Part shown: positions 4,128 through 33,167 of the stretch, piece after piece | Position numbering within the stretch: position 1 is the stretch's first letter | How the letters are laid out: each line of letters opens with the position of its first letter | DNA from: Podospora anserina | Lineage: Eukaryota | DNA: 64,000 nucleotides | NCBI GenBank assembly: GCA_017654855.1 | Contig: CM030332.1 | Location: 3,968,001-4,032,000, forward strand | Direction of reading: 5' to 3' | Notes under the pieces: model-generated | The model's database searches: none | What the model saw: only the letters and a program-made list of their open reading frames with translations | What the model was told of the DNA's origin: nothing | Position numbers and translations under genes: made by a program

Positions 4128-5304
4128 ATGGGGTGTGGGTATCATGGTAGACACGGCTGGGAAGGGGAGGTATTCTTTTTGTTGAGCGGGTGGGTGGTTT
4201 CATGCAACACATGGAGTTAGGAACGGTTGGCGTATGGATAGATAATACATACACATCATTTTTCATTTTCAACTCTTTTCGGGACCGAGGGGGGGGGGAG
4301 GCAGTGCTCACGGGATGATGGGCATGGCATCATAACTCTCAAGATACGGCCCGATGGCAGTCGGATGTTGCGGACCATCCCGTCCGGGAGGTGAGTGTGC
4401 CTCAGCGGGTGCCTTCAGGCGCCAGGCCACCGGACCATGCCTAAAGAGAGAGGCCGGTTTGGCTTCCGCGGCAGCGCCCCACTCACAGCCACGGCGGTAA
4501 TGGCGGTTGACCAGTGGGAGTTGTGCTTCTGTCCCGACAGTTTGGGACGGGGTTTTTAGCGGTTCCATGATGGTCTTGGGGGCGTTGTAGCGTTGTAGTG
4601 GTACCCTCGGTGTGGCCGAAAGGCTGAACATTAAAAAAAAAAAAAAAAAAAAAAACACGAGCAAATGGAGTCAACGCATATTTCTCAACAACTGATGATT
4701 CCGATGGCGACTGTGAATCATCACCGGCCCGCGGAGGATATAAATATCGCTTCCCCGCGGACATCTAACTGGGTAGACCACACAACCACCTCACCAACTG
4801 CAACCCCAGACAGAATACGAAAGACTCCCCGTGAGGAGGGGGGGGGGTGTGCGCTTCTGTCTTGGCCACTAGTCAGGTATGTAGTTCTCATTGTGTGTAG
4901 CTAAAAGAGATATCACTATTTTGTTTTCGCCAACAATTGTGATTTCGTTAACCAAAAATGATTTTCTGTTGTTGATTCCTCTTGTGATATCTCGATTTCC
5001 ACCCCCTTTGTTCGATTAATTGTGGGGCAATGTTTGAATATACATGTCTAAAACATTGCCACGCTGTTAGTTGGGCTTGGATAGTGCTGGATGATGATGA
5101 TGATGTTGTTGTTGTTCCCTAGCAGAGCAGCGATCGTGGTCACCTACCTACCCTATCTCCGAACACATTGTTGGCGACTTGGTATGTTGTTCGATGGTTG
5201 AGTTGCATAGCCACTATCAACTACCTACTTGCATACTTTGATTAATCACATATTTGCTCGATCCTCACCTGCGAGAATGGGGAGGAGGGACGTGCCGCTA
5301 ATGA

Positions 5305-5380
5305 CGATTAGGGGGACGATTAGGGGGTGGATTAGGGGGTGGATTAGGGGGGGGTTGGATTAGGGGGGTGGCTTAGGGGG
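5305..5380 (+). repeat. Six-copy G-rich TTAGGGGG(G) degenerate telomere-like repeat
   Basis: TTAG followed by a G run at 5308, 5320, 5332, 5344, 5360 and 5373. Confidence 0.9.
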
Positions 5381-5631
5381 AATGGATGTACAGGTACTAC
5401 AGTGCGATGAAACCCTGGTCAGACTTCACCTGAATACCTGCAGTGCCTGCATACTGGACGGTTGGCGCTTATTTGAGTGGTGGTCATTGGAGCGGGGTAC
5501 AGACCGGTTGCCTTTCGAGACCCAAGTTGGGGTTTTTGGGTTTGAAGGATGAGTTCCCTTGGTGTTGGGATGGGAGAGGAGTTGTGTGATATTTCTATTC
5601 TTATTCTTATCTTGTTTGTTTTGATTGAGAG

Positions 5632-8600
5632 ATGTCGAATATGGGGTCGAGAACGAAAGATGATGAGCCGGTTAATGTTCTGTCGCTGGGTAAGTTCATC
5701 TACACTTCGGACTAGGGGATGAGCAGCTAATCAGTTGTGGTTTTAGATGGTGGAGGTGTACGAGGTGTTTCGTCGTTGGTGATTCTGGATCGGATTATGG
5801 AAAAGATTCAGAGGAGGGATGGGCTGGAGGAGATACCGAAGCCTTGTGACTATTTTGATATGATTGCTGGGACGAGTACAGGCGGGTGAGTATCTTTGTG
5901 ATTTTGTGTAGTGACCTAGACTGACGAGCGGTTGGTTGTAGGCTTATCGCAGTCATGTTGGGGAGACTAAGGATGTCTACTACTGAGGCCTTGAAGGCAT
6001 ACGACGATTGTGCTGCGAGTATCTTCAACAAGAAGAACAGGAAGACGGGGCAGTGTCGGACAAGTACAAGTCCACTGCACTGAAGGAAGCTGTTCAGAAG
6101 TTGGTCAAGGAGAGGGGAATGGGGGAGATAATGAGGGACCCGAAAAATCCCAAGAAGGGAAGGTGATTGTGTGTGTGATGCCTGCGGATTCTGTTGCGAC
6201 GGGGGAGACGAAGCTGGTTCGCTCTTTTCAGGGTGAGGATGATTGGGATAGTGAGATCAGGATCTGGGAGGCTTGCCGAGCGACGACTGCTGCTTCGAAA
6301 TATTTCAAGCCGCAGGAGCTGGGTGCAGGTGTACGCAAGGGGTTATTCATTGACGCGGCAGTTGGCTTCAACAATCCGGCAAATTACCTTTTGAAGGAGG
6401 CGCTGGATGAGTTTGGATCTCGCCGCCGCTTTAGATGTTTGATCAGTATTGGTACGGGTACGAAATCGATTGAGACTGTGAGGGTGAAGACTGGATTCAA
6501 GAACTACACGAAGGCCTGGGGGCAGCTTCAAGGTCTTATTGGGATGGTCAAGAATGTGGCTACCGACGCGGAGACGTCACATAAGCAGATTCATGACAGG
6601 TTTTCACGCTTTCCTGGGTCGTATCATCGGTTCAATGTACCGGATGGTGCCAAGGAGGTTGAGCTGGATGAATATAAGAAGATTCCGCAGCTCAAGGCCT
6701 TGACTAGGGATTACCTCGGTGGGGATAGTGTAGGTCGACAATACCTGAGGTGGTGGAGGGCTTGGGGGCTCGTGGCAGGTTCAAGCATGGGTTGACTTTG
6801 GGCCATGCCTGTAAGAAGCAACCGACTCACAAACTAGGTCTTGTTTGGGTATGCTAACAATGTTCCAGACTCTCCGGACAGTGACCAGCTATTTCTCTCA
6901 GACAGATCCAAGGCGATGGGAATACCGAGCAGCTTCTTCATAGGGAGACAAGATGTGCTGAACAAAATCGATCAAGTGTTTTGCGAGCGCGACACAGGAG
7001 GAGTTCCAAGGAGGGAATTTCTTCTGTGGGGGATAGGAGGCGTTGGGAAAAGTGAAGTTGCCCTCAAGGCGGCAGAGAACCTGGATGGAGGGTGGGCACA
7101 GTTCCATCACTTTATGTCCCTGGGCCGGTTACTGACAAAACCAAGATTGAAATATATCTTTTACGTCGATGGGTCAGAAAGATCTACGATTATTCATTCG
7201 TACGCCGAGATTTCTAAACGATACAACCTGGGCGGTACCAATCCAGAAACAATGTTCCACATGGCACTGGAATGGACGGGGCGCTTGGCAGACGAATGGC
7301 TCTTGATTTTTGACGACTGCAACTTGAGTGAGCGCGCCGGTTTCATACCGGGCAGAGGAAAGGGCAACATCATCTACACATCACGCTTCAATGGCCTTGA
7401 GCACAACTTCCCGGCACACCTTGTCTACCACGTTGAACCTCTGGCCGAGAGGGACGCCGTTGAACTTCTTTTGGGAGCTTCTGGTCTCTTGGATGTGACA
7501 TCTGATTCAGACAAGGCTGGCCCTACGGTCCCGACACGACGAGCTCCAACAGGCGAGGAAACAGCTCTGGCAAATGAAATTGTTCATGAGCTTAGCTGCA
7601 TGCCTGTCTGCGTCGACAAAGCGGCTGCAGCTATCAGAGAGAGAGGAATGGAACTGGATGTATATCTCAAGGAGTTGCGTACACAAAAGGTTCGAGTCGC
7701 TACAGACCCCCGCTTCAAGGACACAAGTGTTGAGACTCAAGCAGCGTACGCAACTCTAGAGCTATCCTACGACCAGATCACAGCCATCCGTCATCGTGCC
7801 GGGAGAAGTGAAGAAGGACGCGCGGCACTCTTCGCCATGAAGGTCTTGAGCTTGTTGTCGTGCTATCACTATCAAGGATTTTCAACGGAAATTCTAACGA
7901 GGGCGGTGTTGAATCGGCGGAGTTGCAATGCCGACCTTTCTTACCCCTTGAAGCGCATTTTTCAAACCCCAGACAAAGGTTGGGATGATATGATGCAAGA
8001 GGACGGAGAAGGGGGCTGGGAGGTTCTGTTCTTTGCTCACGGGCTTCAAGTCTTGCGACGTTACTCCTTGGTCAGGCTGGCTCCTGACCGCCTCACCCTG
8101 TCCATGCATACCCTGGTTCATACTTGGGCTCAGCAAAGGATGGATCCAGAAGCTCGTGCTGAGGTTTGCTGGCTGGCAGGGGTTTTGCTCAGCGATGCAA
8201 TGACACCATGCTTGATTTTGAAGAACCGGAGGTATGCTATCGGTATGGCACCTCACATCGACTGTTGTTTCGCCATCGTACCAAAGACCCGGGATACTAT
8301 CCAGGAACACGATAATGCCCGTGTCCTTGGTCTCAAGCGCGGCGATGTGGTAGTTGGCCCTAAAAACATAACGTACCCAGTGGACGAGTACTACAATGCC
8401 CATCTTTTGTTCAGACTCGGGTGGTTTTACAGTGCTGTACAGCAGTTCAAACAGGCTGAATATTGCTGGAAGACCTGCCTTCGGCTTTTCAAGTATCAGG
8501 AGGATCCGTTTGGATGGGGTGCTATAAATACACTGACGCACCTGGCTACACTTTACCACGAGCATGGGTTTCTCGGCGAGGCAGAAGCGATGCATTGGGA

Positions 8601-10059
8601 GGCCATCGGCAGACTGGAGGCCAGAAAGCGAGAACGAGAACAGTACCTTCTGAAGGAACTAGAAAAGCGGGAGTTCGAAGAGAAGGCCAGTGTTTCAGCA
8701 CCGCAACGAGGGAGATTGCTGAAGACGGCCCTCGAGAAGACTACCCCGCAGCTTTTTTCCGCCCTTTCTTCTAAGGAGATGGAAGCCAGAATATTCCAGA
8801 CGTTCACTGCAACTGTCGTCAACCCTCTCGCTCGCCACAGGCCCGCAACCAACAGACGAAGTCCCATCGGAGCAGAGGTGGAAGTTCACGAGTCTACCGA
8901 CACTGCTGAAGATGCTGTGGCCACTGTCAGAAAGAAAAAACGCGCTGAAGAGACGGACTCTCTTGATGATCTCGAGGCTGAAATTCTCCTCAGGCACGGA
9001 AGGCTAGCAAGGGTACTGAAAGACCAAGGCAGAAACAAGAATGCAAAGAACTTGATGAACTGGGTCGTCCAGAAATGCCAAGAGGAACTGGTCGAGGATT
9101 CCCCCGAGCTTCTGAGACTTCAGAATGAGGCGAAGGCGATGACTGAGCCAAAGGACATGGACTGGTTCAAGAGACACGTGGACATGATGAACGAATCCGA
9201 CACCAACCAAAGCCTCGCCTTCTTCCAAACTGACGCGATTTACGAGCTGTTCGATCATTGGTGCTGGTCGATGTACCTCGCCGGCCGGTATTCTATGGCG
9301 ATCGATATGTACAAGAAATTCATCCCTAGGGCCGTGGATGTGTATGGATATCATAACCCGAAAGTCCTGAAGATGATGCGGCAAATGGCGGAGGCGGCCT
9401 GGTCTGCCGACAGGCTGGATGATGCCGTGTTCATTGCTGAGTAATGTCTCTTGCGGGCAGAAGATGTTTACCAGCTGTCACATATGGAGGTGATACTGGC
9501 CACGGAGCTACTTGCCAAAGCCCTTGGTAAGCAACGACCTGGAAGTGACAAGGAGGCGGAGGATATGTTTCGGCTTGCTCTGAACCGGGCGCAGTCCAAT
9601 CTTCCGAAGAATCACCCCGTCACTGAACGAATCAAGATAGAGTTTGATTCTTTCAAGCACCCACAGGAGCCTTCATACCTGACAGGTGCTAAGAGTCTGG
9701 AAGAGAGGTGGCTTGATCTCAAGGCTGATGTGAAGGCTCACTTTGCGGAGCTTGGGATGCTCAACGAGTACGCCTTAAGACTTCATGATTTCAAGGGCCT
9801 ACAGCCATGGAGATCCGAAGAGGAGTACCAGCGAAGATTGAGCAAGTTTTCGGTGCTGGCGCGTGCTCCTGGGAAGCTATTAGGCATCAAAAAGCCGGTA
9901 ATCGAAGGGCTATCCACCACCATAACGAGAAACGACCATGGAATTCAGCCTGAGGGAGGAGCCTCTCGGAAATCATCGACATCAAAGGGAAGGGTGTCGA
10001 TAGGGGCGACAACGATTTCAATGCTGCGAACACGCCGATCAGAGTATAGCATAGTTTGA
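5632..10059 (+). pseudogene. Patatin-like phospholipase-NB-ARC-TPR NLR, copy A; disrupted as sequenced
   Basis: ATG at 5632. Introns 5690-5746, 5886-5941, 6811-6868 and probably 7092-7145. Patatin motifs DGGGVRG and GTSTG, Walker A GIGGVGKS, Walker B WLLIFDD, MHTLVH, and TPR-like helices. Alignment to copy B needs +1 base near 6047-6050, 6157-6161 and 6740-6741. In-frame TAA at 9442-9444, with homology continuing after it. Confidence 0.8.
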
Positions 10060-10489
10060 GGGTTCTCATTTATTTTGCATTTCACTTTATACACAGCATG
10101 GGCTCATGAGAAACACGATATCATTTTTATTGCACACAGCTCAGACCACACATTATCTGATTTACACATTATTCAAGGATCATTTTAGCGGTCCCCTTTT
10201 ACACCCCCTACCAGCCCTAGTTTTATATACGGCCACAGTCTAGCCGCACTGTACGGGCTGCACCCAACCGGGCGCTTAAACATGACCTCGCCATTGGAGT
10301 GCATCGCCAAGGGCTAAGCATGCTGAGCCACCTCAGACAATAAAGGCACACAGCTAGCTCACTTTGTACAAATGTACCACGCTGCTGCCCTCAGTGAAAA
10401 TGGCTTCCCAGGAAACTCAGTGTTAACACCCCATCAACTGGCACTCGGGTCTCAAACTTGAGAACGGGTTTAATGTGCGAAGCTTCCCA

Positions 10490-13400
10490 ATGTCAACAGA
10501 CGATGAAGCAATCAATCTGCTGTCTTTTGGTAAGATAAAGCATCTGTATCAGAGTGGTGAGGGTAAGAGAACTAACATCATACAGATGGCGGAGGTGTCC
10601 GAGGTGTCACATCACTGCTTATTATCCACGAAATCATGATCAAGATCAAGGAAAGACACGGATTAGCTGAAATACCCAAGCCTTGCGATGTCTTCCACAT
10701 GATAGCCGGGACCAGCACGGGAGGGTGAGTACTCGATCCAGCAGGATAGTCTCTCTACAACTAACATCTGACCCAGCCTCATTGCCATCATGCTCGGCCG
10801 GCTTCGAATGTCCACCGAGGAAGCCTTACGCCAGTACGACGTCTGTGCCGAGAATATCTTCTCGTCCAAGAAGTGGGCGAACATCACAGAAAAGTTTCGT
10901 AGCACCCCGATGATAAATATTATCCAGAAACTCGTGGCGGAGAAAGACATGGGGGAAATGATGCGCGATCCTGCAAAGCCAGCAAAGGGTAAGGCGGTGG
11001 TTTGTACTATGCCGCGGAAGAGGGCGAATCCGAAGAATGTTCGGCGGATTCGCTCCTTTTCACCAGAAAAGGATAATTGGTAAGCTTTGTGCTGTTTGAA
11101 GTTTGGTTACCTGCATCGGGTGCGCTGACATTCTGGAATTGAATAGGGACAAAGAGGTGAAGATATGGGAGGCTGCCAGGGCCACAACGGCTGCTACCTT
11201 TTACTTCAAACCACAACCACTCACGGTCTCAACACCTCAGGGTGGTTCAAAAATTGAAGACTACATTGACGCTGCCTTTGGGGTTAATAACCCTACCAAC
11301 GAGCTCATCAAGGAAGCGGTTGCCGAATTTGGGCCCAGTCGACGGCTTGGTTGCTTGATCAGCATTGGGACTGGGACTAAACAGGAGCGTGTAATTTCCA
11401 GAGCTGCAAGTGGGTTGAGGAACGTCTGTGATATGTGGGGGAGTATATTTGATGTCGGGATGGCCATGAAGGACATGGTTACCAATGCCGAACTCGTGCA
11501 TTTCGACCTGGAAATGCGACTGAGACGAAAACCGGATGCCTACTTTCGCTTCAACGTTCCTCTTGCGGCAGACGAAGTCAGTCTGGCCCAGTATGGCAAG
11601 ATAGGAAAGCTCAAATCGATGACCGCTAAATACCTCTGCGAACCGGAGGTGGTTGGCAACATTGAGAGGGCGGCTGATATTTTGGAAACCGAGAATGCTG
11701 AACACCACCTGAACCTCGGAGCCCTATGTGAGTAGAAGGAGGTTGCTCTGAAGAATTCATTGCTGACGGGAGCCATAGCTGAACCAAGCGAAACAAGGCC
11801 TGACGAAAACCTAAAAGCAAACCTGATGGGTGAGGCAAGCCGGTACTTCACGGGAAGAAACCACATCATGGGGATCCTGAATACATTCTTCTCCGATCGA
11901 GAAGACGAGACTGTTCCTCGAAGAGAGTTCTGCCTCCATGGCCTTGGCGGTGTTGGGAAAACACAGATTGCGTTGAAGGCAGCCAACATATTCCGTCATG
12001 GGGATCCCGAGCTGGGCATACCGAGGAAGCGAAGGTTCCCGCATATTCTATATGTGGACGGCACCGACAAGACAACCATCAGCCAAAGTTATGCAAGCAT
12101 TGCAAGAGATGAATTTGGCATCGAGGCCAGTGGCAACTCTGACCAGTTGATGAGACAAGCTCTTCAGAAAATGGAACGGCTTGACGAGGATTGGTTTCTG
12201 ATTTACGACAACTGCAACCAGGAAGACCGCCGAGAGTTGCTACCGAAGGGGGACACAGGCAATGTTCTATTCACCACGAGAAACCGGGTGGTGCGAAACC
12301 AGATGCGAGATGAATGCGTCTATGATGTCGAGGTGTTGGAGGAACTGGACGCTATCCGGCTTCTCCTGACAGCCTCGGGATCAAAATACGCTGATCTGAA
12401 CGCATGGGACCAGTCAATAGGCAAGGAAATCGTCGAGGAACTTGGCTATCTGCCCCTCGCCATCGACCAGGCAGCTGCGTACATCAGAGAAGCTCCATGT
12501 CCCCTTGATGGCTACCTGGAAGTATTCCGCAAGCAAAGGGTCGAACTACTCCGAAACCCAAAGTTCAAAGGCTCGCTCGCACAGAACCAGGCCGTTTACA
12601 CCACATTCGAAGCATCTTACAAAGCCATCGCCCAGCTTGAACTGCACAACAAGAACACGCTTGGTAGAAACGCCGGTCTTGCTCTCCGAGCTCTCGATCT
12701 GGTATGTTTCTGGCACAACGAGAACATTCCAGTCAAAGTTGCTTGGTGGGGAGGCGTATCCTGGAAGAATCGACTCGACATGGGCAAGGACATGCCCGCG
12801 CTGGAAGAGCACTTGGCACAACTCACCGGGGACGAAACGATGACCTGGCGGAAGTTCTTCTTCCAGTTGAGCGAATCTAGGGATGGAGAATTCCCAAGCG
12901 CCCTCGACATCCTCGAACGGTACTCAATACTTACAGTGAAGGAACGGGAACTCGCCTCAATGCACGTCTTGGTTCACTCCTGGGCACGGGACCGGATGAA
13001 GGCTGAACACAGGGCACGACAAGCCCTTGTGTCAAAAGTCCTACTGTTGGACTCGATTGGCGACACACTCACCGCCACCTACGCACGTTCCTATCTCCAT
13101 TCGATTTACCCCCATGTTCGGGCGTGTCTTGAACACTCCACATGGGGATCTAGATCCCTCCATCTACCGTACGAGCTCGTCTTGAGAGGCAAATACGCGC
13201 ACATCCTCACCTTTCAGAAGCGTTTTGGTGAGGCCGAAGCCGAATACCTCGATATCATTCACTTGAGCAAATTGTCTATCGGGCCTACCACTTGGGCGGT
13301 TCAGCGGCCCCTCTGCTCTCTAGGGAAGCTCTACCATGAAATGGGTCGTTTGCGCGAAGCTGAGTTGACGTATCTCGAATGCATTGATCGCTGCATCTTG

Positions 13401-14867
13401 GAGAAGGAAGCAAATCGGATGGAGATAGAGGGGCGCGTAAAGGCACAACTTGCGCAACTGCGTGCCATCCCCAAGCGAAAGAAGCAGAATAAGAATGACG
13501 AATCGGACGAGGACAGACCGCCATCACCGCAGCTGAGCGAAGAGGAGATTGCCCAAGCAGCTCGCTGGTTCGTACCCGACTGGAATAGCACGGATAGCTG
13601 GCAGCTTCAGATTTCCAACATCGAAGAGAACCTTGCCAGGGTTTACTACGACCAGGCAAACACTGAAGATGATCTCATCTATTCCGCAGATCTTTTGGCC
13701 AGCGCGCTGTACCGACGAAAGAAGATACTCCACCCTGAAAACATGGAACTCTGGAGGACAGAAGATGAGTATCGAAGCAGAACCCAGCATCGGGATGTGA
13801 AGTACTGGCTGTTTCGGTTCGAAGCGGCAATGAAGACGTTCAAGTCTGAAGAGGACCAAGTCGCTTTCATTACAGGAGAATACCACGGCCGCCTTGTCCA
13901 GAATATGGCTAACAGCATGGTTGCCATGCGGCAATGTGTCAAGTATCACAAAGGCGAGGATTATTGGGCAGAAGACTTGAAGTGGATGTGGGAACAAGCC
14001 CACAAATACTACGGGACGATACTCTGGAATGGATTTATCAAGTGGTTCGGAGAGTCCGACTACAGGTGTCTCGAGGTGATGCGGCGGATGGTCAAGTGCC
14101 TCATTGGCTTGAAAAGATATGAAGAAGCTGAAGCACTCGCGAGAAGGTGCCTGGCGTCGAGCATTGTGGGCTATGGCGAATGTCACCAGCAAACGATCCT
14201 ATCCCTGGAAAAATTGCACGAGGCTATTGCTTGTCGACTGGGGGGTTATGATCTCGAGTCGGTTTATGTTATCAAGGAGGCTTTTCACAGGGCAGACGCC
14301 GTTTTCGGAGTAGACCACCGGCTCACGAAACGCACAGGCAAGAAAACCACCCGCGCCATGGAGAACTACCAAGAGAATCTCTCCGACTGGGCGTCAATGA
14401 GCCAAAACATCTTGACTGATGCTCACTGGGAGTATGGGGCAATGGAAGACCAGGAGACAAGAGAGGTGCTACTCGGTGAACGCGCAAAGCACCACCTCGT
14501 ATCGTACACGATACCTGACCCAAATTTCGACGCACGCCTTCGTAAGATGGCAGAAGCAAACGCAAAAGCGGTCTTGGAAGAGACGATGATGGAGGTTGAA
14601 TCAGAGGTGGCTCCAACAACAACAACAACAACAACACATACTCACTCAAGACATGTTGACATAACACCAGCAGCCACAAGCGAACCACCATCGCAAAGCA
14701 CTTCAAAATCACTTGGTCACCACCACAATCACGAGTCATTTGGCGAATCACAAGCGTCTACACTTTTCTCCCAAGCTCGAGAAGAGCAATACACATCTGA
14801 CAGCAGCAGCGGGGATACCAAAAGAAGTGGTGTAAACGATATCAAGGGAAAGTCAGTGGCAGAATAG
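10490..14867 (+). CDS. Patatin-like phospholipase-NB-ARC-TPR NLR, copy B; intact, about 1383 aa; PLP-1/PaPlp1-like allorecognition receptor
   Basis: Exons 10490-10529, 10586-10724, 10777-11079, 11147-11727 and 11779-14867 total 4152 nt and stay in frame. Motifs DGGGVRG, GTSTG, Walker A GLGGVGKT, Walker B WFLIYDN, YLPLAI, MHVLVH, and TPR-like SLGKLYHEMGRLREAELTY. Confidence 0.92.
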
Positions 14868-14940
14868 GTATATATACAGAGGCTTGAGGCTGGATACTAG
14901 TACACAAATGAATTAGAGGTTCTCATTCCATCGTTCACGC

Positions 14941-15535
14941 CTACGACTCATTCCCCTCCGTCCCCTTCTTTTGTATCGCCTGCATAAGCTCATACAACTG
15001 CCCGATTTGCTCATCTGTTCACCAAGTCAGCATTTCTCTGTAAACAAACCCCCAACAAACTCTCAAAAACAAAAACATACCACTCATCTTCTGAATCTTC
15101 CCCTCATCCAACTTCTCCCCCCTCCAAGCATCCCCCTCAACCTTCTGCGCGTACAGCTGCCACTCAGTGAGAAAGCCGATCTACTCCCAACATCAGTCTT
15201 CCATTCTCTCCTCAGACCCATCCCACATCACTCCTTGATGTTCAAGTCCCCCTTTATCTCTCCGCCCTGCTAGAAATCCTGTATCCTCAAAAAAAACAAC
15301 AAAAAAAACCAGTACTCACCAAATGAACCGGATTCTCCACGCTCCTATGCGCCCTAAACTCCGCCTTGACATACTCATCCCCCAACAACCTCATCTCCGC
15401 CGGCAGGTGCTTCCTGTGCGCCCTCAGCAACCGCCGGTACAAATAAATCGGGGGCAGCAGCGCCATCGGTGTCGGTTTGAGGCTGTTGCCCGATTGCATG
15501 GCCGCTGCCATGAGCGCTCTGGCTGTTGGTCTCAT
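14941..15535 (-). CDS. SDH7: Succinate dehydrogenase assembly factor 3 (SDH7/ACN9, LYR family)
   Basis: LYRRLLRAHRKHLPAEMRLLGDEYVKAEFRAH, then intron 15181-15319, IGFLTEWQLYAQKVEG, a second intron at about 15015-15080, and DEQIGQLYELMQAI...stop. Confidence 0.88.
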
Positions 15536-16014
15536 TGTTTCCCTTTGTGGGTGTGCTTCAGAATGACGAGAGCGAGGTTGTACTTTATGAGGCGTCTTTC
15601 ATGTTGTTGTTGATGTTGATGTTTTTCCAGTATCAAATTGCTGGTTTCTTCAACGTCGCAAAACATGATGCTGCCGAGCTGGTGGTAACGGGCCCACACA
15701 GTGTCCGTGGGTTGGGGTTTGAACGGTGCGCCGAGTGAAAAGTCAGGGGTTCAAGGGGGGTTAAGCATAAAGTCACTTCAATGTTGGGAGTCCGAGTATT
15801 CGTGAAAAGGCACCAAGACTGATCTGATACGGTCCATATTTACAAAAGAACCATGCCACCAATACTTAAACTACGCCTTCCTCGTTGTATTATTATATAC
15901 ACGTCCTACTACCATCCAAGTAGAGTCACCTTCTTGCTCAAACATGCCTCCTTCGCCATGTTATCACACCCCTTTCACCATCCAACCAGGACCTCCTTCC
16001 GGTCAAACACGCCT

Positions 16015-18363
16015 TCACCCCGACCTATCCACCGCCTCCACAATCCACTGCGCCTCTATGGCGCTCACCTTCTTCGCATAATTCTTTTGCGTATACACAT
16101 GCTCCAAAAACATAACCGCCTCCTTCTTCTGCCCGTGGAGCACACTAGCCGGGTGAACAGCCACCACATGCTTCCCATGCGCCGTCACATAACTGTTATC
16201 CGGCGCCAGAATCGCCGTCTTGAGCGCAAAACCCCTCAGGAAACACTTCAATATCACAGCGGATCTCTCTGGCGTGATAGGGTAGAAAGGCTGCGGATCC
16301 GCAGGCGGATGTTCCATCATCTTTTGCCTAACACAAAGCTGCCTCAGCTGTTTCCGAATATTCATCGCTTGCTTCATATTCCTGGTGTTGATCTTCCTGT
16401 CCTTGCACCAGCGTGCTCTATCGGCGTTCTCGGCGCTGTATTTCTGGATCGTGGTCAGGTACGTGATGAGATCACCTTCTCTCCTCCGCAACTCTTTCCT
16501 GAACTCCTCGGCTTCTTCCTTGGTCTCCTCTGACTGGATCTGAAGGAAAATGTCGTCACCTGCCGTGATGCACGAGATGATGTCGATGACCTCTAGCAGG
16601 CAGTCGTATTTTGGGGTTGCTGCTGCGATCAGAACACGAGCATATGGCGGTGGGACGGGGAACATGACCATCTTGCGCCCGATATCCGTGATGGACCCAT
16701 CATCTGCCAGCGCGCCGAGAATATGAAGATGGAGCAAAGCTTTTTCCACCGACTCAAATTCTGGGGGGTCCATGAGGGGAAAAGCCAGTACATCGTCAAT
16801 TCCTCTCGCCTTCATCGTCAGCACAGCGTTGAGCACATCCGTCCGGAGAATTTCGGGGAGGTCTGTCTTCTCAAGCGATTCGTAAGTCTCCTCTGTGTAG
16901 AGTCTGAAACACTTTCCAGGACCTTCTCTGCCAGCACGACCAGTCCTCTGAATAGCTGAAGATTTGGAGATCGGCTTGGCCAAGAGTGATTCCATGCCCA
17001 ATCGAGGTCTGTATTGCTTCACCTTCGCCTTACCACAGTCTACCACAAATCGCACACCGGGAACTGTGACTGAGGTTTCGGCGATGTTGGTAGCCAACAC
17101 GATCTTCCTGGTGTTCTTGTCCTTGGTAGGTTGGAAAGCTTTGTGCTGCGCCTCCATGGAAAGCTGGCCGAAAAGAGGCAAGACCACAACCTTGGGGACG
17201 CCAGCTGGCAATGTTTCCGCATGTTCTTCGATCAAGCGCTGGGCAGCTTCAATCTCCTCTTGACCAGTGAGGAAGGCTAGGATGTCTTTCCTTCCATGTT
17301 TGTCGAAGAGGGACTCCTGCTTGTGAATCTTGAATAGTGTGCTCAGGAGGGCTTCTTGGATATCTGGGACTGGTTTTGGCGTATGCGTGATCTCAACCGG
17401 AAACTGACGGCCTTCGATCTGGAGGAAATCCACGGAAGTTTTGGGTCTTGTCGCAGGAGGGGCACATTCTTCAGACCCTTCCAGATCGACGTCGGAAAAG
17501 AACTTCTTGATGCTGCCGACATTCGCCGTAGCACTCATGATGACGATTTTGAGCGGGATGCCGCCGCGACCAGCCTTGTCGCCAGAGAGGATCTGCTTCA
17601 GAAAACCAGATAGCAGATCAACATCGACGCTACGCTCGTGAATTTCATCCACGATGATTGCGCTGTACTGTCGGAGGTGCGGGTCGCGAAGAAGCTCTTG
17701 AAGCAGCATGCCTTCTGTGACATATTTGATCCTGGTGCCTTTCGGAACGCGGTGGTCGAAACGAACTGAATAGCCAACAATGCCGTCCGAAAGTGGGCCG
17801 TGTCTCTCCGTGTCCTTCTTCTTCCCTGGGATGTTGGCCTCCTTGGCCACGCGGTGCGCCAAGGTGGTTGCAGCGACTCGACGTGGTTGCGTGACTGCGA
17901 TCATACCTCCCACAGCCATTTCCTGCACGCCCCCATCTCCCTTGATTTTGGCCTTCTTCCTTTGACACCAGTCCTCTTGGATCAGAAATTGAGGCACTTG
18001 GGTACTCTTTCCGGAACCCGTCTCACCGACAAGAACCAAGACATCGTTTTGACGCAGCCTTTGTCGAATATCATCTTGCCGTGACCAAAGCGGGAGTGCT
18101 TGACGAGCGTCGAAATATTTTGGGTTGCCGACTAGTTTCAAACGCCCGCCTGCCTTGGGGTCTTTGCTTGTTGTCGATATTCCTTCCTTTGAGTCTGAGA
18201 GGCCCTCATTTAATGTCGACACGCCCTCTTTTGCTAGTGTGAGGGCGTCAGTTGAAGATTGCGAGGCCTCAAGCTTGGGCCTTTTCGTTAAATAACCACT
18301 CAAGTCGAGGATTTTCCCCCCCACACGAATACCGTCGCCGTCGTTTTTCCTTTTCTTGGCCAT
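16015..18363 (-). CDS. DHR2: DEAH-box ATP-dependent RNA helicase, DHR2-like
   Basis: GETGSGKST, TQPRRVAA, DEIHER, MSAT, ATNIAETSVT and QRTGRAGR. First ATG is at 18363 (MAKKRK). The subfamily assignment is inferred. Confidence 0.8.
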   Translation of the reverse strand: MAKKRKNDGDGIRVGGKILDLSGYLTKRPKLEASQSSTDALTLAKEGVSTLNEGLSDSKEGISTTSKDPKAGGRLKLVGNPKYFDARQALPLWSRQDDIRQRLRQNDVLVLVGETGSGKSTQVPQFLIQEDWCQRKKAKIKGDGGVQEMAVGGMIAVTQPRRVAATTLAHRVAKEANIPGKKKDTERHGPLSDGIVGYSVRFDHRVPKGTRIKYVTEGMLLQELLRDPHLRQYSAIIVDEIHERSVDVDLLSGFLKQILSGDKAGRGGIPLKIVIMSATANVGSIKKFFSDVDLEGSEECAPPATRPKTSVDFLQIEGRQFPVEITHTPKPVPDIQEALLSTLFKIHKQESLFDKHGRKDILAFLTGQEEIEAAQRLIEEHAETLPAGVPKVVVLPLFGQLSMEAQHKAFQPTKDKNTRKIVLATNIAETSVTVPGVRFVVDCGKAKVKQYRPRLGMESLLAKPISKSSAIQRTGRAGREGPGKCFRLYTEETYESLEKTDLPEILRTDVLNAVLTMKARGIDDVLAFPLMDPPEFESVEKALLHLHILGALADDGSITDIGRKMVMFPVPPPYARVLIAAATPKYDCLLEVIDIISCITAGDDIFLQIQSEETKEEAEEFRKELRRREGDLITYLTTIQKYSAENADRARWCKDRKINTRNMKQAMNIRKQLRQLCVRQKMMEHPPADPQPFYPITPERSAVILKCFLRGFALKTAILAPDNSYVTAHGKHVVAVHPASVLHGQKKEAVMFLEHVYTQKNYAKKVSAIEAQWIVEAVDRSG

Positions 18364-19252
18364 TTTGTCGAGTGATTTGAGGTTGTCTGGGAGAGGTTCA
18401 AGACACAAGAGTTGTGAGACTAAGATTTCTGAAGTGGTCGAACGTGATGTGATTGGCCAGACAGCTGGAGTAGGTGGGGCACCCAGTTCCGTTCTTGATG
18501 CCAAATAGATTTGAAAATTACAGTGTTATGCTTCTATGAAGGCCTTTTCAACATGGAGACATGAGAAAATTTGAACAGCACCAACAATACTTGAGAACCC
18601 GAAAAAGCATTCTGTGTTGCAACCTTAACCCAACCCCGATCATCAATAAGTGCAAGACAATATCGCATACCTGAAAACAACGTCAAGACAAATTCAGAAC
18701 GAGGGTTTATGCTGCCCATCATACTTTTCGCCGGGGCTCCTTTTTTAACTGCTTACATACTGCAAATTTTGTCGGACAGGATCACTGTCTTGGTTTTACT
18801 GTGCGATTGGCGTCAATAGTCACAAGGGGTCAAGATGTAAAGTCGTACACACACTTAGATGAAGCCAGCGAGGCAGGCTTCCCGGATGTCATGATTTGAT
18901 ACCCCGAATACAAACACTCGAAGCCTAAACTGGGTTCTATGATGATTGCTCAGATATTAAAGATGCCAGGTTGTGAAAGTATTGAATGATCATACATCAA
19001 GTGAAGTTTCATCCAAGCCAAACGCCATGAGAAATGGAAAACCACAACCAGAAGCAATGTACGTCTTGGTCTTATGTACGTTCAGACTCCAAGCTGGCAG
19101 AAATGCAACATGATAACTGGAATCACATATAAAATCACAAATTAACCAGACCGAAAACGTGAAACAAACATCATTTAGCAGAGACTACAAGGAAAACTAA
19201 ACCCGAAATATAAGCATCAGGCAACATAAACTATGCATGAGCCAACTGCATT

Positions 19253-20592
19253 TTAGGGAGAGTATTCCGCTTTCATGCGATTGTTCTGCGCACGAACTTT
19301 GTCCTTGGCAGCATCGGACTATCAAATTTTGTTAGCATGTTGATACATTCATCATAAGGAAATCGTCGACTCACCTTCACCGTTAGCCTGGTCACCTGGT
19401 TGATCTGTGCATCCGTCCGCACACTGAATCCCTTGGCCAGCATATTCATAGTCGAGACACTCAGTGCAATCTCTGTCATATCATCATCAATCTGATTGTT
19501 GAGTTCCTCTTGCTCTCCGTCATTATCCTCAAAGGCCCACTTTGAGCGATCGGCTTTGTTAAAGCCTAGGGTTGGCCGTCCCACTTGAGCAGTGGCGGCC
19601 TCCAGCTCTCGCTTCCGCAAAGCCTGCTCCTCCCGGAGCGCATCTCTATCAATCTCCCTCTCTCGCTCAGACTGAGCCTTCCTCGCTGAACGCTCGGCAA
19701 GCTTTCCTTTGCTATTTGCGGCCAAGTTGAAGAGTGACGAGTTGGCAGCGTCCAGATTGTCGAGGTGTGCGTGCGCCAAGCGAGCCTGATGCTCTGCAAC
19801 TTTGAGTTAGCATCGAGCACGAGTAAACTATAACGACATAGAACTGGAAAGCTTACTTGATTCATCGAGTTGCTGCTCAACCTTGTTGAGAATAGCCTCA
19901 TCTCTGTCATACATCTGGTGCATGCCCACCATACGCTCCACTCCTTCAGCAGCCTTCAGCCGGGCGCGAGCTGAGCTCTGGGCTGTCTCTTGAATGGTGT
20001 GGATGATTTCTCCCTTTTTGGTTTCTGCCTCGTAATCATCCTTCTCTTCCGCCGTCATGTTCTCATAATTGTCGGGAATCTCTGGACGAGGAGGTGGTGC
20101 CATTGCCGAATAGGGATCTCTCTGTTGACGCCCATCGAACAGGGGGTTTGGTTCACTCAAACCACCGTATCCTCCTTGTCTCGGGGGGGGAGCCTGAACG
20201 TTGTTGTTCTGGCCATAGCCGGCAGCATTATCGTATCTGTTGCCGCCATATCCGCTGGGGGCGCCAGGCCGATCATTCCCATATCCTATCGAAGGGCTGG
20301 ATGCAGCCGAATCATATCTCTTCTTGTTGTCTGTAAAGGCGGCATCATTCTGAGCGGAGTAAGGCGGTGGGGCGGAGCTTCCAGGACGAGGACCAGATGG
20401 TAAGCCGCCGCCGTAGCCACCGGGACGAGGACCGGACGGCAGTCCTGAAGGGACTCCGCGATTTCCGCCGTATGCAGGAGCGGACGAGTATGTGTCGCTG
20501 GACGGCGGTTGTTGCGCATAAGGGTTCACAGGTGTCTCGTTGGGCTTGTCTTTATCCGACTTGCTGCGGAATAGAGAGCTGAACTTGCCCAT
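19253..20592 (-). CDS. SEC9: Sec9/SNAP-25-like Qbc t-SNARE, about 406 aa, divergent allele
   Basis: ATG at 20592 (MGKFSSLF). N-terminus is rich in G/Y/P/N (NPYAQ, GGYGG). Introns 19794-19856 and 19319-19374. Two SNARE-length heptad helices are separated by a linker containing ADRSKWAFEDND. Confidence 0.85.
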
Positions 20593-22150
20593 GATGGGAT
20601 GCTGTGAATGGTTTAGTACGATAAACAAGACAAAAGGTTGAGTCGTCTGATGACAACGAGATGGTAAAACAGGTGTTGACAAGATGAAAAGGAAGGAAAG
20701 TATGTGATGTTAGGTGTTCAGGGGGCGTTTTGGCGTAAAGACCCCCTAACAGCTGGCGGGGCTTTGGGTGGAGCTCTGCGGCGGCGGGACGGTGGGATCC
20801 AGACGAGCTTGTGTCTTGAGACTGTTCCAGGCTGTGACCTATTCGGTAAAAGAGGAAAGCCCCTGCCTCGCAATGCTGACGACCACTTGCTTGACCGCAG
20901 TTAAGCAATTGGGGGTCGCTGTCCTAATCAACCGCCGGATCGTGACCGCCATGCAGCCACTTGGCGCTCCGCCACCAGGGATGATGCTTCAAAAGAAGGC
21001 TTCTGGAAATCCATTTTCAGCTTGTTTCTTTTCTTACCTTGTCAACCGCAGACTCCATCTTGACTTCGTGTTCATCGTCTGTTTCTTGGTCTCCTTTGAA
21101 ACAGCCTGACTTCCACTCTTCCTGCGAATCTGTCAACCCTGAAAATTGCGGCCCTTCGAGTTTCTCAGGGTCCTGTATCTCGCTGGATTGATGCAGGTCC
21201 AGTGGTGGGGGGCGCCGATGTTGCGACTGGTCCACTGCCATCTTGGCTTCGGGCTGGGGGTTTCGTCCGCTCCTATCGCTGTCGCTGGGGGGTTTGCTGG
21301 AATTGCTGGAATCACTGCACAGTGGTTCGCTGGAATAACTGAAATCGCTGCCTCGTGGCGAGAGGGGCTCCAGCTGGAGTTCTTTGATCAGCGAAGGATC
21401 CATGATGGCTCTAGATTGACGATTGACTGTTCATGGAACAAGCTGAGCGAAGTGGCTTCTCAATACAATGAAAGCCGTTCATTGAGAGAGGGTGGTGGCT
21501 TGCAAGAACAACTAAAAGTCTATCTGATAAGAAGAAAATACGACAGTACCTCAATTCAGGCGCCTTTTGCGCCTGAACAAAGGTACTGCCGTAATACGAA
21601 GCTAACGGAGAACAGGCCTTGTAACCTGGTCTCTGTTGCTGGCGACTGCCCAGTCACAGCGCGAATGCCATCCCAGGCCGCTTGCTCATTGACTGCACTT
21701 GGACCTTACATAAGTTCCCCAAATCTTGATGTGTCACTTTCGTCGGTGTGAGAGTCACCTTTTTTTTTTGTTGACGACAAATTCAAGGTGTTTGATAAGA
21801 ACACCTGAATTGATTCATCCCCTCCCACTGTTGACAGTACACCGAGTCACGAGTATCTTTATAACCCATTATCAAAATGTTTTCTTCTATTTAGATCGCC
21901 GTGATTCCCTTGCAGGCGCAGTCGAGTCCTCGTCCTTCAAGCCCTTTGCCTTAACATTGACCTGAAGCACGCATCTTCCGAGTTCAAGATGACACCACGA
22001 ATACACCTACACCTACACCGAATATATTTACTAGAAATGTCGATCAACCATACAATAGCATATCTACTCACCTAAGCACGCCTAACTCGCAGCATTTCAC
22101 AACAGCCACCTACAGATCTTACAAGGAATCGCCCCTAAAACCCAGCTCGA

Positions 22151-31532: not shown

Positions 31533-33167
31533 TGACGGCAACACGGTTCGAGATGCAAGTTTGACATCTGTACTCATCCACGGCATAAAGCATGAAAGCA
31601 CAAAGTATGACTAGACCACGATATTTCCCCCCCCCCCGTCTTATAGGCCACGGTAGGTAGTATAACGTGGCATGCATATGCACTCCAGATTTCTAGAGCG
31701 GGAGCTATTCTAAACAGATTATATCATAGGGTCAGAGAGAAGTGTTATATGTGAACAGCAACAGCCGAACGGGTGCCCTGGCTTCCGATGCAGGATAGAG
31801 GCATGTTTTGCTCGCTTGAGGGGGGAGGGTAATATCAACAGTGTTGATGAGAGGCGTGGATGGGGACGGCCCGGAGGGTGGTGTAACTCTTGCCATGCGT
31901 TTTGGACATTGAACGCGAGAGAGGCATCACCACAACGGATTCTTGGATTGGAAATTGAGATGGACATGGACACGGCAAGAGACTGGACAAGGCAGACTTC
32001 TGAAACGCAGCCATCATCCCGTCTTATCACTGACGAGGGCATCAACGGTCTGTAGGCGCCTCTTTTACCGCCATGCCGGGCTCAATGATGAAGATATCAG
32101 CAAGCGCGAGGAACCGCGGTGCTGGGCGTGATGGCGGCAAAGCTGCGAGTTGGTCACTCTTGAAGAAGGAAGCTAAAGAATTCTCTGGGACGGAATGTGG
32201 TATCTCCAGTACACCATCTGGTGAAGATTTCCGGTACGGAAGCCGCTCAAGACAAGGCGGGTAGTAAGCAGTGACTGATCGTCTCACTCCCGTTGGTTGA
32301 GATCTGATGCCGCACTCGCACTCAGAAAAGAGGTTAGCGGCGTGGGTAGAGAAAATGATCTGATCTCATCACCAATTAGACAAAGTGCCGCCCTCCTCCA
32401 GCCTTGTGCCCCTCCTTCCAGAGAGAACGGCGGTCTGGGCGAAAGCCCACGTTGGGTTGCTCCTCACTCGGAGTTTGGAAAGATGAGAGAAGCCCACCAG
32501 CGAATAACACGCACTTCCGCACCCTCTTCCCAAAAGTCACGGAGAAGAAAGTCGAGCGCGCGGTGTGAGCAGAGGCAAGTGAAGGGCGTCTAACTGCAGA
32601 GTGATTTGGTCGCTGATTGGCTGGGGGTTTCCAGGGTGTCACCAAAGGAATCTATTTCGAGCGGCTATTTCCCCTCTTTTGACCACCGTCCACTCACAAG
32701 GCACCACCAACACGTCGCTCTCGGCCCCCAGCGCTTAAAAATACAGCATCCCACTGCAGACGGAAACAAGAGCTCCCATAGCGCACTGCATGAGACTGTG
32801 TAGAAGCAACGCGCTTGTACCGGGGTATTCTAGCTATCACAACATGTACTGTGGTACGACCTCCTGAATAAAACGATTTTGGTCCCTCTCTCTCTTGTTC
32901 CATTTTGTGCACTGGTTGCTCTTGCTTCCTGGTCCAATATCGCCAATTGTTGTTGTTGTTGCCGTCGACAGTGTTGATCCATCGCTCCATAATGTCTCGA
33001 TAGCAGGTCTACAGGTACTTCTGGAATTGCTGTGCGACTTGTGTTCTGCCGGTTCGCGACACGGAAACGTGGAAAGTGTAGGATACTGAGAAAGGAAGGG
33101 AAAAAGAAGCATTAGAGAAGGCTAGGAAACACAGCATAGCCACGACACCGCATATCGCCCACACACC

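What the first reader, a model, noticed from the sequence alone, without database searches (positions are those of the whole stretch)
5632..20592. Patatin-NB-ARC-TPR NLR pair linked to SEC9: a guard-type allorecognition cell-death locus
Seen: two tandem patatin/NB-ARC/TPR genes, the second ending about 4.4 kb from a Sec9 gene. Established: Neurospora plp-1/sec-9 and Podospora het-z (Heller et al. 2018, PNAS) use a PLP NLR to detect non-self SEC-9 and kill fused cells. Inferred: this window is such a locus. The system type is known, but this haplotype (one broken and one intact NLR, plus an unusual Sec9) may be a distinct specificity.
Basis: partly seen in the sequence, partly recalled or inferred. 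Interest (0 to 1): 0.85.

Follow-up and report, generated by a model that had tools for sequence, protein, structure and literature searches.

The report
Known Podospora het-Z cell-death locus
This stretch is the already cloned het-Z self/non-self recognition locus of the dung fungus Podospora anserina: one working patatin-type immune receptor gene, its SEC9 partner gene, and a broken but still transcribed older copy of the receptor.

Summary
Two tandem patatin/NB-ARC/TPR genes lie at 5632-10059 and 10490-14867.

The locus is not new. Spliced copy B is 1383/1383 identical to PODANS_1_11380 (CDP23496.1), the protein a 2026 paper calls PaPLP1 of het-z. Sec9 is 405/406 identical to PODANS_1_11410. 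Copy A is PODANS_1_11370, listed in that paper as an NLR linked to PaPlp1. So this is the reference-type haplotype, not a new specificity.

Details added here:
- Copy A is an old paralogue (32% identity to B), not a recent duplicate.
- It carries three 1-nt frameshifts and a TAA. Two independent contigs match exactly and raw reads show no indels. It is still transcribed and spliced.
- All four lesions are absent from ORFs that appear to sit with the other PaPLP1 allele class.
- The two PaPLP1 classes differ mainly in the TPR half (56-84% versus 94-100% identity).
- Sec9 is a divergent SNAP-25-type SNARE with Asp at the first zero-layer position.

Verdict: correct rediscovery of a known system; low interest.

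The parts
5632..10059 (+). Copy A = Pa_1_11370 / PODANS_1_11370: a patatin/NB-ARC/TPR NLR paralogue that is a transcribed, spliced pseudogene in this haplotype. Exons by RNA-type contig: 5632-5689, 5747-5885, 5942-6810, 6869-7090, 7145-10059. The last intron (54 nt) is retained in one contig.
   Evidence: Pfam on ORF pieces. Its ORF falls in the same 90% cluster as PODANS_1_11370. Spliced joints appear in run X17. Identity to copy B is 32%.
6048..6059 (+). Frameshift 1 of copy A: one base missing relative to the open forms, which read ...KTGQVSDKYK...
   Evidence: Three-frame reading. P. comata P0191 and Logan ORF P0195 read through the site. Motif position. No indel in contigs or raw reads.
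6155..6168 (+). Frameshift 2 of copy A: one base missing relative to the open forms, which read ...PKKGKVIVCV...
6736..6750 (+). Frameshift 3 of copy A: one base missing relative to the open forms, which read ...VGRQIREVVEGLG...
   Evidence: T. setosa sequence; P0195; P0174.
9442..9444 (+). In-frame TAA in the TPR region of copy A. Relatives have Gln here (FIAEQCLL).
   Evidence: P0191 and P0192 have Q at this position. The 992-aa ORF P0161 reads through it.
10490..14867 (+). Copy B = PaPlp1 (Pa_1_11380), the het-Z NLR: patatin + NB-ARC + TPR, intact. Exons 10490-10529, 10586-10724, 10777-11079, 11147-11727, 11779-14867.
   Evidence: The spliced model is 1383/1383 identical to P0144 = CDP23496.1. 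Pfam. Motifs. PMC13449251 gives PaPLP1 = CDP23496.1.
16015..18525 (-). DEAH-box RNA helicase ORF (first Met near 18363) lying between PaPlp1 and Sec9. A bystander gene.
   Evidence: Pfam DEAD, Helicase_C, HA2_N, HA2_C and OB_NTP_bind. Translation.
19253..20592 (-). PaSec9 (Pa_1_11410): a SNAP-25-type t-SNARE and the recognised partner. Exons 20592-19857, 19793-19375, 19318-19253. Asp231 sits at the zero-layer position of the first SNARE motif and Gln375 at that of the second.
   Evidence: 405/406 identical to P0128 = PODANS_1_11410. The cluster holds 'T-SNARE protein SEC-9' annotations. The family profile hits yeast Sec9 at E=3.2e-29 and SNAP-25 at 1.5e-12. Alignment; residue numbers.

Best explanation
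The region is the het-Z heterokaryon-incompatibility locus of Podospora anserina, in the haplotype of the reference strain. I recall the label het-Z1 for this allele; no text I read states it for the strain.

How it works
- PaPLP1 (copy B) is a tripartite NLR.
- Its variable C-terminal TPR half senses the SNARE protein SEC9.
- When hyphae of unlike het-Z type fuse, PaPLP1 of one haplotype meets the SEC9 variant of the other.
- The NB-ARC module then oligomerises, and the N-terminal patatin phospholipase executes death of the fusion cell.
- The interaction is pseudo-allelic and reciprocal.

Copy A (Pa_1_11370) is an older paralogue of the same NLR family. In this haplotype it is dead: the mRNA is made and spliced but keeps three frameshifts and a stop.

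What is shown here: identity of the genes, their anatomy and motifs, the lesions and their reality in reads, transcription and splicing of copy A, and the concentration of allelic divergence in the TPR half.

What is taken from the literature: binding, oligomerisation, the requirement for the patatin and P-loop residues, and reciprocity.
For: Identity of the genes
- Copy B spliced is 1383/1383 identical to PODANS_1_11380 = CDP23496.1. PMC13449251 uses CDP23496.1 as PaPLP1, 'part of het-z' (passages).
- PMC3689799 lists Pa_1_11380 as Patatin/NB-ARC/TPR, pairs it with NCU09244, and reports it up-regulated 4.65-fold during incompatibility (passages).
- Sec9 is 405/406 identical to PODANS_1_11410. 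Its cluster contains 'T-SNARE protein SEC-9' of two sister species.

Domains and motifs.

Two allele classes
- Window-type proteins (P. anserina, P. pseudopauciseta, P. pseudocomata) are 98.6-100% identical to the window.
- The second class (P. comata, P. pseudoanserina, P. bellae-mahoneyi) is 80-82% identical.
- The two classes form two starred sister clades.
- This fits the published biallelic, trans-species het-z polymorphism.
- Against P. comata P0154, identity is 94-100% in twelve of the thirteen 50-residue bins of residues 1-650 (90% in bin 451-500), and 56-84% over residues 651-1300.

Mechanism from reviews and papers, read as passages only
- PLP-1 binds SEC-9, oligomerises, and needs the patatin and P-loop residues.
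- het-Z is pseudo-allelic and reciprocal.

Copy A lesions are real
- Contigs of runs X1 and X10 match positions 5600-10100 with 0 differences and 0 gaps.
- 1309 raw Hi-C reads of X21 show no indel at the 10% threshold.
- X17 contigs carry four GT..AG joints and keep the frameshifts.
Against: - I could not read the cloning paper (Heller et al. 2018); it is not held. The assignments 'Pa_1_11410 = PaSec9' and 'this allele = het-Z1' therefore rest on annotation names, linkage and recall. The search found no held paper containing Pa_1_11410.
- The window's Sec9 differs from the database representative at residue 7 (L versus I). Copy A's ORF differs from P0160 at 2 of 829 residues. The strain may not be exactly the reference.
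- In my tree the Neurospora NCU09244 clade lies outside both Podospora paralogue clades (quick LG+G4 search). One-to-one orthology of PaPlp1 with plp-1 is therefore not shown here, although PMC3689799 pairs the two.
- Depth of raw reads over frameshift 3 (bin 6657-6807) is only about 7.
Confidence: 0.95

Rival explanations
1. The haplotype encodes a new het-Z specificity distinct from the described alleles.
For: - Sec9 has one residue unlike the database representative (L7I).
- The haplotype has a broken second NLR.
Against: - PaPLP1 is 1383/1383 identical to the reference-strain protein.
- Residue 7 is Leu in 4 of the 4 other sequences that share the MGKFSS N-terminus: 3 of the 9 other rows of the Sec9 alignment plus P0129. 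It lies in the N-terminal tail, outside the SNARE motifs.
- The literature passages describe only two allele classes.
- The same truncated copy A ORF is present in other assemblies (cluster of 7 members).
Confidence: 0.02
2. Copy A is still functional in this haplotype. Either the frameshifts are assembly errors, or they are bypassed by splicing or recoding.
For: - The gene is transcribed and correctly spliced at four introns.
- All three frameshifts are single bases in short runs of one base, a typical long-read error pattern.
Against: - Two Logan contig sets (X1, X10) match exactly, and Illumina raw reads (X21) show no indels.
- The spliced X17 contig covers 5941-6810 with 0 gaps, so the mRNA keeps all three shifts.
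- The TAA at 9442-9444 is a substitution, not a run-length error.
- From the ATG, the spliced frame stops at the TGA of '...TSTSPLH*' (three-frame reading from 5934). That is after the GTSTG serine motif but before the Asp motif.
Confidence: 0.02
3. The two NLR genes are the direct counterparts of Neurospora plp-1 and plp-2, one orthologue each.
For: - I recall tandem plp-1/plp-2 next to sec-9 in N. crassa; I did not read this in any held text.
- Tandem pairs also occur in Chaetomium globosum (CHGG_00910 and CHGG_00911).
Against: - In the 49-row tree, copies A and B fall in separate starred clades inside a 37-row Podosporaceae/Chaetomiaceae clade (SH-aLRT 100).
- All 5 Neurospora/Pseudoneurospora rows, NCU09244 among them, fall with Apodospora and Rhypophila in a 7-row clade outside it (SH-aLRT 96).
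- Caveats: this was a quick search with the LG+G4 model, the rows were hand-picked, and no row was verified as plp-2.
Confidence: 0.15

Closest known systems
Podospora anserina het-Z locus (PaPlp1 / PaSec9; Heller et al. 2018 PNAS, not held here and cited through PMC13449251, PMC10890737 and PMC12881547)
   Same: It is the same locus. The NLR protein is identical, Sec9 is 405/406 identical, and the flanking NLR Pa_1_11370 is the same gene.
   Different: Nothing of substance differs. The details added here may already be in the supplements I could not open. They are the exact lesions of Pa_1_11370, its transcription and splicing, its open state in the other haplotype, and Asp at the Sec9 zero layer.
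Neurospora crassa plp-1 / sec-9 germling-regulated death system (NCU09244)
   Same: - The NLR has the same tripartite architecture and is linked to a sec-9 SNARE gene.
- The alleles are polymorphic haplogroups.
- The mechanism is SEC-9 binding, NB-ARC oligomerisation and patatin-dependent death (passages).
   Different: - Copy B's large exon and NCU09244 are about 30% identical over 43% of the query.
- The Neurospora clade lies outside both Podospora paralogue clades in my tree.
- A helicase gene separates the NLR from Sec9 here.
- Four haplogroups are reported in N. crassa, against two alleles here.
Cryphonectria parasitica vic2 (patatin-like NLR plus sec9-like vic2a)
   Same: A patatin NLR paired with a SNARE gene acts as a vegetative incompatibility locus (passages).
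   Different: It is in a different order (Diaporthales). The Diaporthales rows form the outgroup in my tree. No sequence labelled vic2 from C. parasitica itself was compared.
Botrytis cinerea Bcvic1 / Bcvic2
   Same: An NLR paired with a SNARE protein controls incompatibility.
   Different: The NLR there has a lipase/NACHT/ankyrin architecture and the SNARE is a syntaxin-type Qa protein. It is analogous, not homologous.

Membership tests
Podospora het-Z (PaPlp1/PaSec9) | The NLR gene is Pa_1_11380 (PaPLP1, CDP23496.1). | tested here: met
   The spliced copy B is 1383/1383 identical to P0144, whose accessions include CDP23496.1. PMC13449251 names CDP23496.1 as PaPLP1.
Podospora het-Z (PaPlp1/PaSec9) | A linked Sec9 SNARE gene is the partner. 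| tested here: met
   Sec9 lies 4386 bp from the NLR and is 405/406 identical to PODANS_1_11410. Sister-species cluster members are named SEC-9. The family profile hits yeast Sec9 at E=3.2e-29.
Podospora het-Z (PaPlp1/PaSec9) | Two deeply diverged allele classes are shared across species. | tested here: met
   The two protein classes are 80-82% identical, each found in three species, and form starred sister clades. Published as biallelic and predating the species complex.
Podospora het-Z (PaPlp1/PaSec9) | Co-presence of unlike alleles kills the fusion cell (barrage). | not testable with these tools
   Literature only. The primary paper is not held.
PLP-1-type fungal NLR | N-terminal patatin domain with a Gly-rich loop, the GxSxG serine and a catalytic Asp motif. 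| tested here: met
   Patatin E=6.5e-19. DGGGVRG at residue 14, GTSTG at 55 and IDAA at 201. The motif definitions are recalled.
PLP-1-type fungal NLR | Central NB-ARC domain with Walker A and Walker B motifs. | tested here: met
   NB-ARC E=1.1e-8, above the Pfam cut-off. GLGGVGKT at residue 409 and FLIYDN at 494.
PLP-1-type fungal NLR | C-terminal TPR sensor that carries the allelic variation. | tested here: met
   TPR_12 scores 32.5 bits, above its cut-off of 30.1. Identity between the allele classes falls to 56-84% after residue 650.
PLP-1-type fungal NLR | Physical binding of the TPR domain to SEC-9 and oligomerisation. | not tested
   Reported for N. crassa in reviews. No complex prediction was run here.
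Sec9 / SNAP-25 (Qbc t-SNARE) | Two SNARE motifs homologous to Sec9/SNAP-25. | tested here: met
   The profile of 10 relatives, with the database copy P0128 of this Sec9 (405/406 identical to the window's) as first row, hits yeast Sec9 over profile positions 205-411 at E=3.2e-29. It hits both SNAP-25 motifs. The single sequence finds no SNARE and no Pfam family at E<=1.
Sec9 / SNAP-25 (Qbc t-SNARE) | Gln at the zero layer of both motifs. | tested here: not met
   In the first motif the column aligned with SNAP-25's Q of 'DEQGEQL' is Asp231. Three of the 10 aligned sequences have D (Podospora, Triangularia setosa, Cercophora samala) and 7 of 10 have Q. In the second motif Gln375 is kept. That this column is the zero layer is recalled knowledge of SNAP-25 Q53.

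The most novel reading that the evidence does not exclude
The two het-Z haplotypes may differ in how many working SEC9-linked patatin NLRs they carry, not only in their PaPlp1 and Sec9 alleles. Pa_1_11370 is dead in the reference-type haplotype. In the assemblies that appear to hold the other PaPLP1 class, it is open across all four lesion sites (a 295-aa and a 992-aa ORF). If it is whole and active there, it could be a second guard of SEC9. It might then contribute to the known asymmetry of het-Z in sexual incompatibility.
Probability: 0.1. Interest if true: 0.45.

Novelty: already known. Interest (0 to 1): 0.13.

Why it matters
The first-stage reader correctly recognised a fungal NLR/SNARE guard locus from raw sequence alone, which is useful as a calibration point for the scan. 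Biologically the locus is already cloned and population-genotyped, so the finding adds nothing new.

Three minor additions may interest people working on het-Z:
- A lesion-by-lesion description of the neighbouring paralogue Pa_1_11370.
- Evidence that it is a transcribed pseudogene in this haplotype but open in the other.
- Asp in place of the zero-layer Gln in the first SNARE motif of Sec9 in Podospora, Triangularia setosa and Cercophora samala, consistent with a fast-evolving guarded target.

Tried and rejected
- **Whole genome of the window:** not held. I could not look for a second, canonical Sec9 paralogue or check the wider locus.
- **Heller et al. 2018:** not held by DOI or PMC id. Its content is cited only through other papers and my recall.
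- **Sec9 alone against Pfam and the PDB:** no Pfam family at E<=1. The only PDB matches were Rix7 at E=0.036, which I judged spurious. This was resolved with a family profile.
- **First tree with the mixture model:** I repeated it with LG+G4 and a quick search, so branch support is weaker than a careful run would give.
- **Recent tandem duplication or RIP of a duplicate as the origin of the pair:** rejected. The copies are 32% identical and fall in separate clades.
- **RIP signature of the copy A lesions:** not testable, because no DNA of the other haplotype was available. Only the TAA fits a C-to-T change of CAA.
- **Earlier scan notes:** none exist for this genome.
- **RNA runs:** no RNA holder is listed on record. 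Run X17 is labelled only as a guessed RNA run. Its spliced contigs are what indicate RNA.
- **Rest of the window:** scanned for other NLR or het-type genes among the long ORFs. ORFs of 230 aa or more past 29000 were listed, and 10 of the 22 were sent to Pfam. Seven of those gave housekeeping families and three gave no family; none gave an NLR or het-type family.
- **Complex or structure prediction:** none run. Binding is already reported in the literature, and no full Sec9 of the other haplotype was in hand.


Full report
**What is in the sequence**

The window is fungal DNA of about 50-55% GC. Stop-to-stop ORFs and three-frame reading show the following genes.

- Copy A is a first patatin/NB-ARC/TPR gene. 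It runs from the ATG at 5632 to the stop at 10057-10059.
- Copy B is a second such gene. It runs from the ATG at 10490 to the stop at 14865-14867.
- A DEAH-box helicase ORF lies on the minus strand at 16015-18525. Pfam finds DEAD, Helicase_C, HA2_N, HA2_C and OB_NTP_bind.
- A three-exon Sec9 gene lies on the minus strand, from the ATG at 20592 to the stop at 19253.
- The finding's start and end coordinates are the two outer start codons.

**Identity of the locus**

Copy B:
- Its large exon finds 759 proteins at E<=0.001 among 8000 scored candidates.
- The best hit is 'Patatin-like phospholipase-1' of Podospora pseudopauciseta, at 99% identity.
- That hit's 90% cluster contains PODANS_1_11380 of P. 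anserina S mat+, with accessions that include CDP23496.1.
- With the four GT..AG introns removed, copy B gives 1383 residues, all identical to that protein.
- Passages of PMC13449251 (Genome Biol Evol 2026) name CDP23496.1 as PaPLP1. [quoted passage not shown]
- PMC3689799 (passages) lists Pa_1_11380 as Patatin/NB-ARC/TPR of 1384 aa and pairs it with N. crassa NCU09244.

Sec9:
- Exon 1 finds 16 proteins at E<=0.001 among 4711 candidates, led by PODANS_1_11410.
- The spliced 406-aa protein differs from that representative at one residue, L7I.
- The same cluster holds proteins annotated 'T-SNARE protein SEC-9' in two sister species.

The window is therefore the cloned het-Z locus of P. anserina, or a nearly identical strain. 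No held paper contains the string Pa_1_11410, and the cloning paper is not held. That one gene-number assignment therefore rests on annotation, linkage and my recall.

**Copy B anatomy**

- Pfam on the identical protein gives Patatin at E=6.5e-19, NB-ARC at 1.1e-8 and TPR_12 at 1e-7.
- It carries DGGGVRG, GTSTG, an IDAA Asp motif, Walker A GLGGVGKT and Walker B FLIYDN. The motif definitions are recalled.

**Two allele classes**

- Proteins of P. anserina, P. pseudopauciseta and P. pseudocomata are 98.6-100% identical to the window's PaPLP1.
- Proteins of P. comata, P. pseudoanserina and P. bellae-mahoneyi are 80-82% identical.
- The two classes form two starred sister clades.
- Against the P. 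comata protein P0154, identity over residues 1-650 is 94-100% in twelve of thirteen 50-residue bins, and 90% in bin 451-500.
- Over residues 651-1300 it is 56-84%, and the tail is unalignable.
- The variation therefore sits in the TPR sensor half. This fits the published statement that het-z is biallelic and that the biallelic state predates the species complex.
- A second exon-1 form of Sec9 exists in one Logan assembly (P0129, 90% identical). It differs mainly in the N-terminal tail and at four residues of the first SNARE motif. Its haplotype is not determined.

**Copy A**

Its 868-aa ORF finds 29 proteins at E<=1e-20 among 8000 scored candidates. Its cluster includes PODANS_1_11370. PMC13449251 mentions this gene once, as an NLR 'linked to PaPlp1' whose high Tajima's D may reflect that linkage. 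A search found that gene number only in that paper and its preprint.

Copy A is an old paralogue.
- It is 32% identical to copy B.
- The tree has 49 rows and 1289 columns and was built with a quick LG+G4 search.
- I hand-picked 47 database rows out of the roughly 150 listed hits. Most Colletotrichum proteins and all bacterial TPR proteins were left out.
- Copy A groups with Triangularia and Cladorrhinum proteins (5 rows, SH-aLRT 100). Copy B sits in a separate 9-row clade (SH-aLRT 99).
- Both lie inside a 37-row Podosporaceae/Chaetomiaceae clade.
- All 5 Neurospora/Pseudoneurospora rows, NCU09244 among them, fall with Apodospora and Rhypophila in a 7-row clade outside it.
- Copy A is better conserved with Triangularia setosa (72%) than copy B is (36%).

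Copy A is broken in this window at four sites.
- Three single-base losses change the frame within 6048-6059, 6155-6168 and 6736-6750.
- A TAA stands at 9442-9444 where relatives have Gln.
- These are not assembly errors. Contigs of two runs from different studies (X1, X10) match 5600-10100 with no difference.
- The 1309 raw Illumina Hi-C reads of X21 show no indel at the 10% threshold. Depth over the third site is only about 7.

The gene is still expressed.
- Contigs of run X17 join 5688/5746, 5884/5941, 6810/6869 and 7090/7145 at GT..AG borders.
- They cover 5941-6810 without gaps, so the spliced RNA keeps the frameshifts.
- X17 is on record only as a guessed RNA run. The spliced contigs are the evidence that it is RNA.
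- From the ATG, the reading frame stops at the TGA of '...TSTSPLH*' (three-frame reading from 5934). That is after the GTSTG serine motif and before the Asp motif.

**Copy A elsewhere**

- A 295-aa ORF (P0195 and twins) reads straight through all three frameshift sites. A 992-aa ORF (P0161, in a cluster of 11) reads through the TAA site.
- These ORFs are listed on Logan contigs of the same lengths (60537, 9833, 10280) as fragments of the second PaPLP1 class. I infer that they are linked to the other het-Z haplotype. Equal contig length is not proof.
- The window-type truncated ORF (829 aa) sits on contigs of length 20364-20366. Fragments 99.5-100% identical to the window's PaPLP1 sit on contigs of the same length.
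- Gene models of sister species look damaged in other ways:
  - P. pseudoanserina is split in two, with most of the patatin domain missing.
  - P. pseudocomata is truncated at 511 aa, with gaps.
  - The P. comata model lacks the first exons and is odd at the third frameshift site.
- I cannot tell annotation artefacts from lesions without their DNA. Table S4 of PMC13449251 probably answers this, but supplements are closed.

**Sec9**

- Alone, the protein matches no Pfam family at E<=1. In the PDB it matches only Rix7 at E=0.036.
- A profile of ten relatives matches yeast Sec9 at E=3.2e-29 over both SNARE motifs, and SNAP-25 at 1.5e-12.
- It is a true but divergent Qbc SNARE.
- In the first motif, the column aligned to the Gln of SNAP-25 'DEQGEQL' is Asp231 in 3 of 10 sequences (Podospora, T. 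setosa, Cercophora samala) and Gln in 7 of 10.
- The second motif keeps Gln375.
- Whether the genome holds another Sec9 could not be checked.

**How it works**

From passages in reviews and papers:
- PLP-1 binds SEC-9 of unlike specificity through its C-terminal sensor.
- It self-associates through a functional NB-ARC domain.
- It needs its patatin catalytic residues to kill.
- In Podospora the het-Z interaction is pseudo-allelic and reciprocal, but asymmetric for sexual incompatibility.

For this window these steps are inferred from gene identity. Nothing functional was tested here.

**Verdict**

The locus is already known, and the haplotype is the reference one rather than a new specificity. 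The rest of the window holds housekeeping genes only, as far as scanned.

Noticed in passing
window 19253-20592 (-), Sec9 residue 231: The first SNARE motif of Sec9 has Asp where 7 of 10 aligned relatives, yeast Sec9 and SNAP-25 have the zero-layer Gln. The same Asp is present in Triangularia setosa and Cercophora samala.
   Followed up: partly
window 7091-7144 (+): A 54-nt in-frame intron of copy A is spliced in one X17 contig (depth 4.9) and retained in another (depth 10.7). This suggests alternative or inefficient splicing of the pseudogene transcript.
   Followed up: no
window 20923-21430 (-), upstream of Sec9: Sister-species annotations give a 531-aa 'SEC-9' model that adds an upstream ORF to the 406-aa protein. 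The Logan fragment P0212 does not align with Sec9; by its letters it matches the translation of the upstream stretch near 21000-21200 read. The long model is probably a fusion of two genes or an annotation artefact.
   Followed up: no
window 5300-5380 (+) and 4630-4655 (+): Just upstream of copy A there is a G-rich degenerate repeat (GATTAGGGGG-like units) and an A run of about 25 bases.
   Followed up: no
window 22139-62349: The flanking long ORFs are ordinary. They include an EF-Tu-type GTPase, a class II tRNA synthetase, a CorA-like transporter, a GH47 mannosidase, Maf, a lysophospholipase (PLA2_B), a HIS4-type trifunctional enzyme, TAF9 and lipin. Three long ORFs (33126-35222, 47064-47918, 58864-62349) have no Pfam match.
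   Followed up: partly
Loci of relatives (protein ids only): Tandem or triple sets of this NLR family appear to be shared across relatives. Cladorrhinum sp. PSN259 has three paralogues on one contig. Triangularia setosa has an A-type gene, a B-type gene and Sec9 on one contig. Chaetomium globosum has CHGG_00910 and CHGG_00911.
   Followed up: partly
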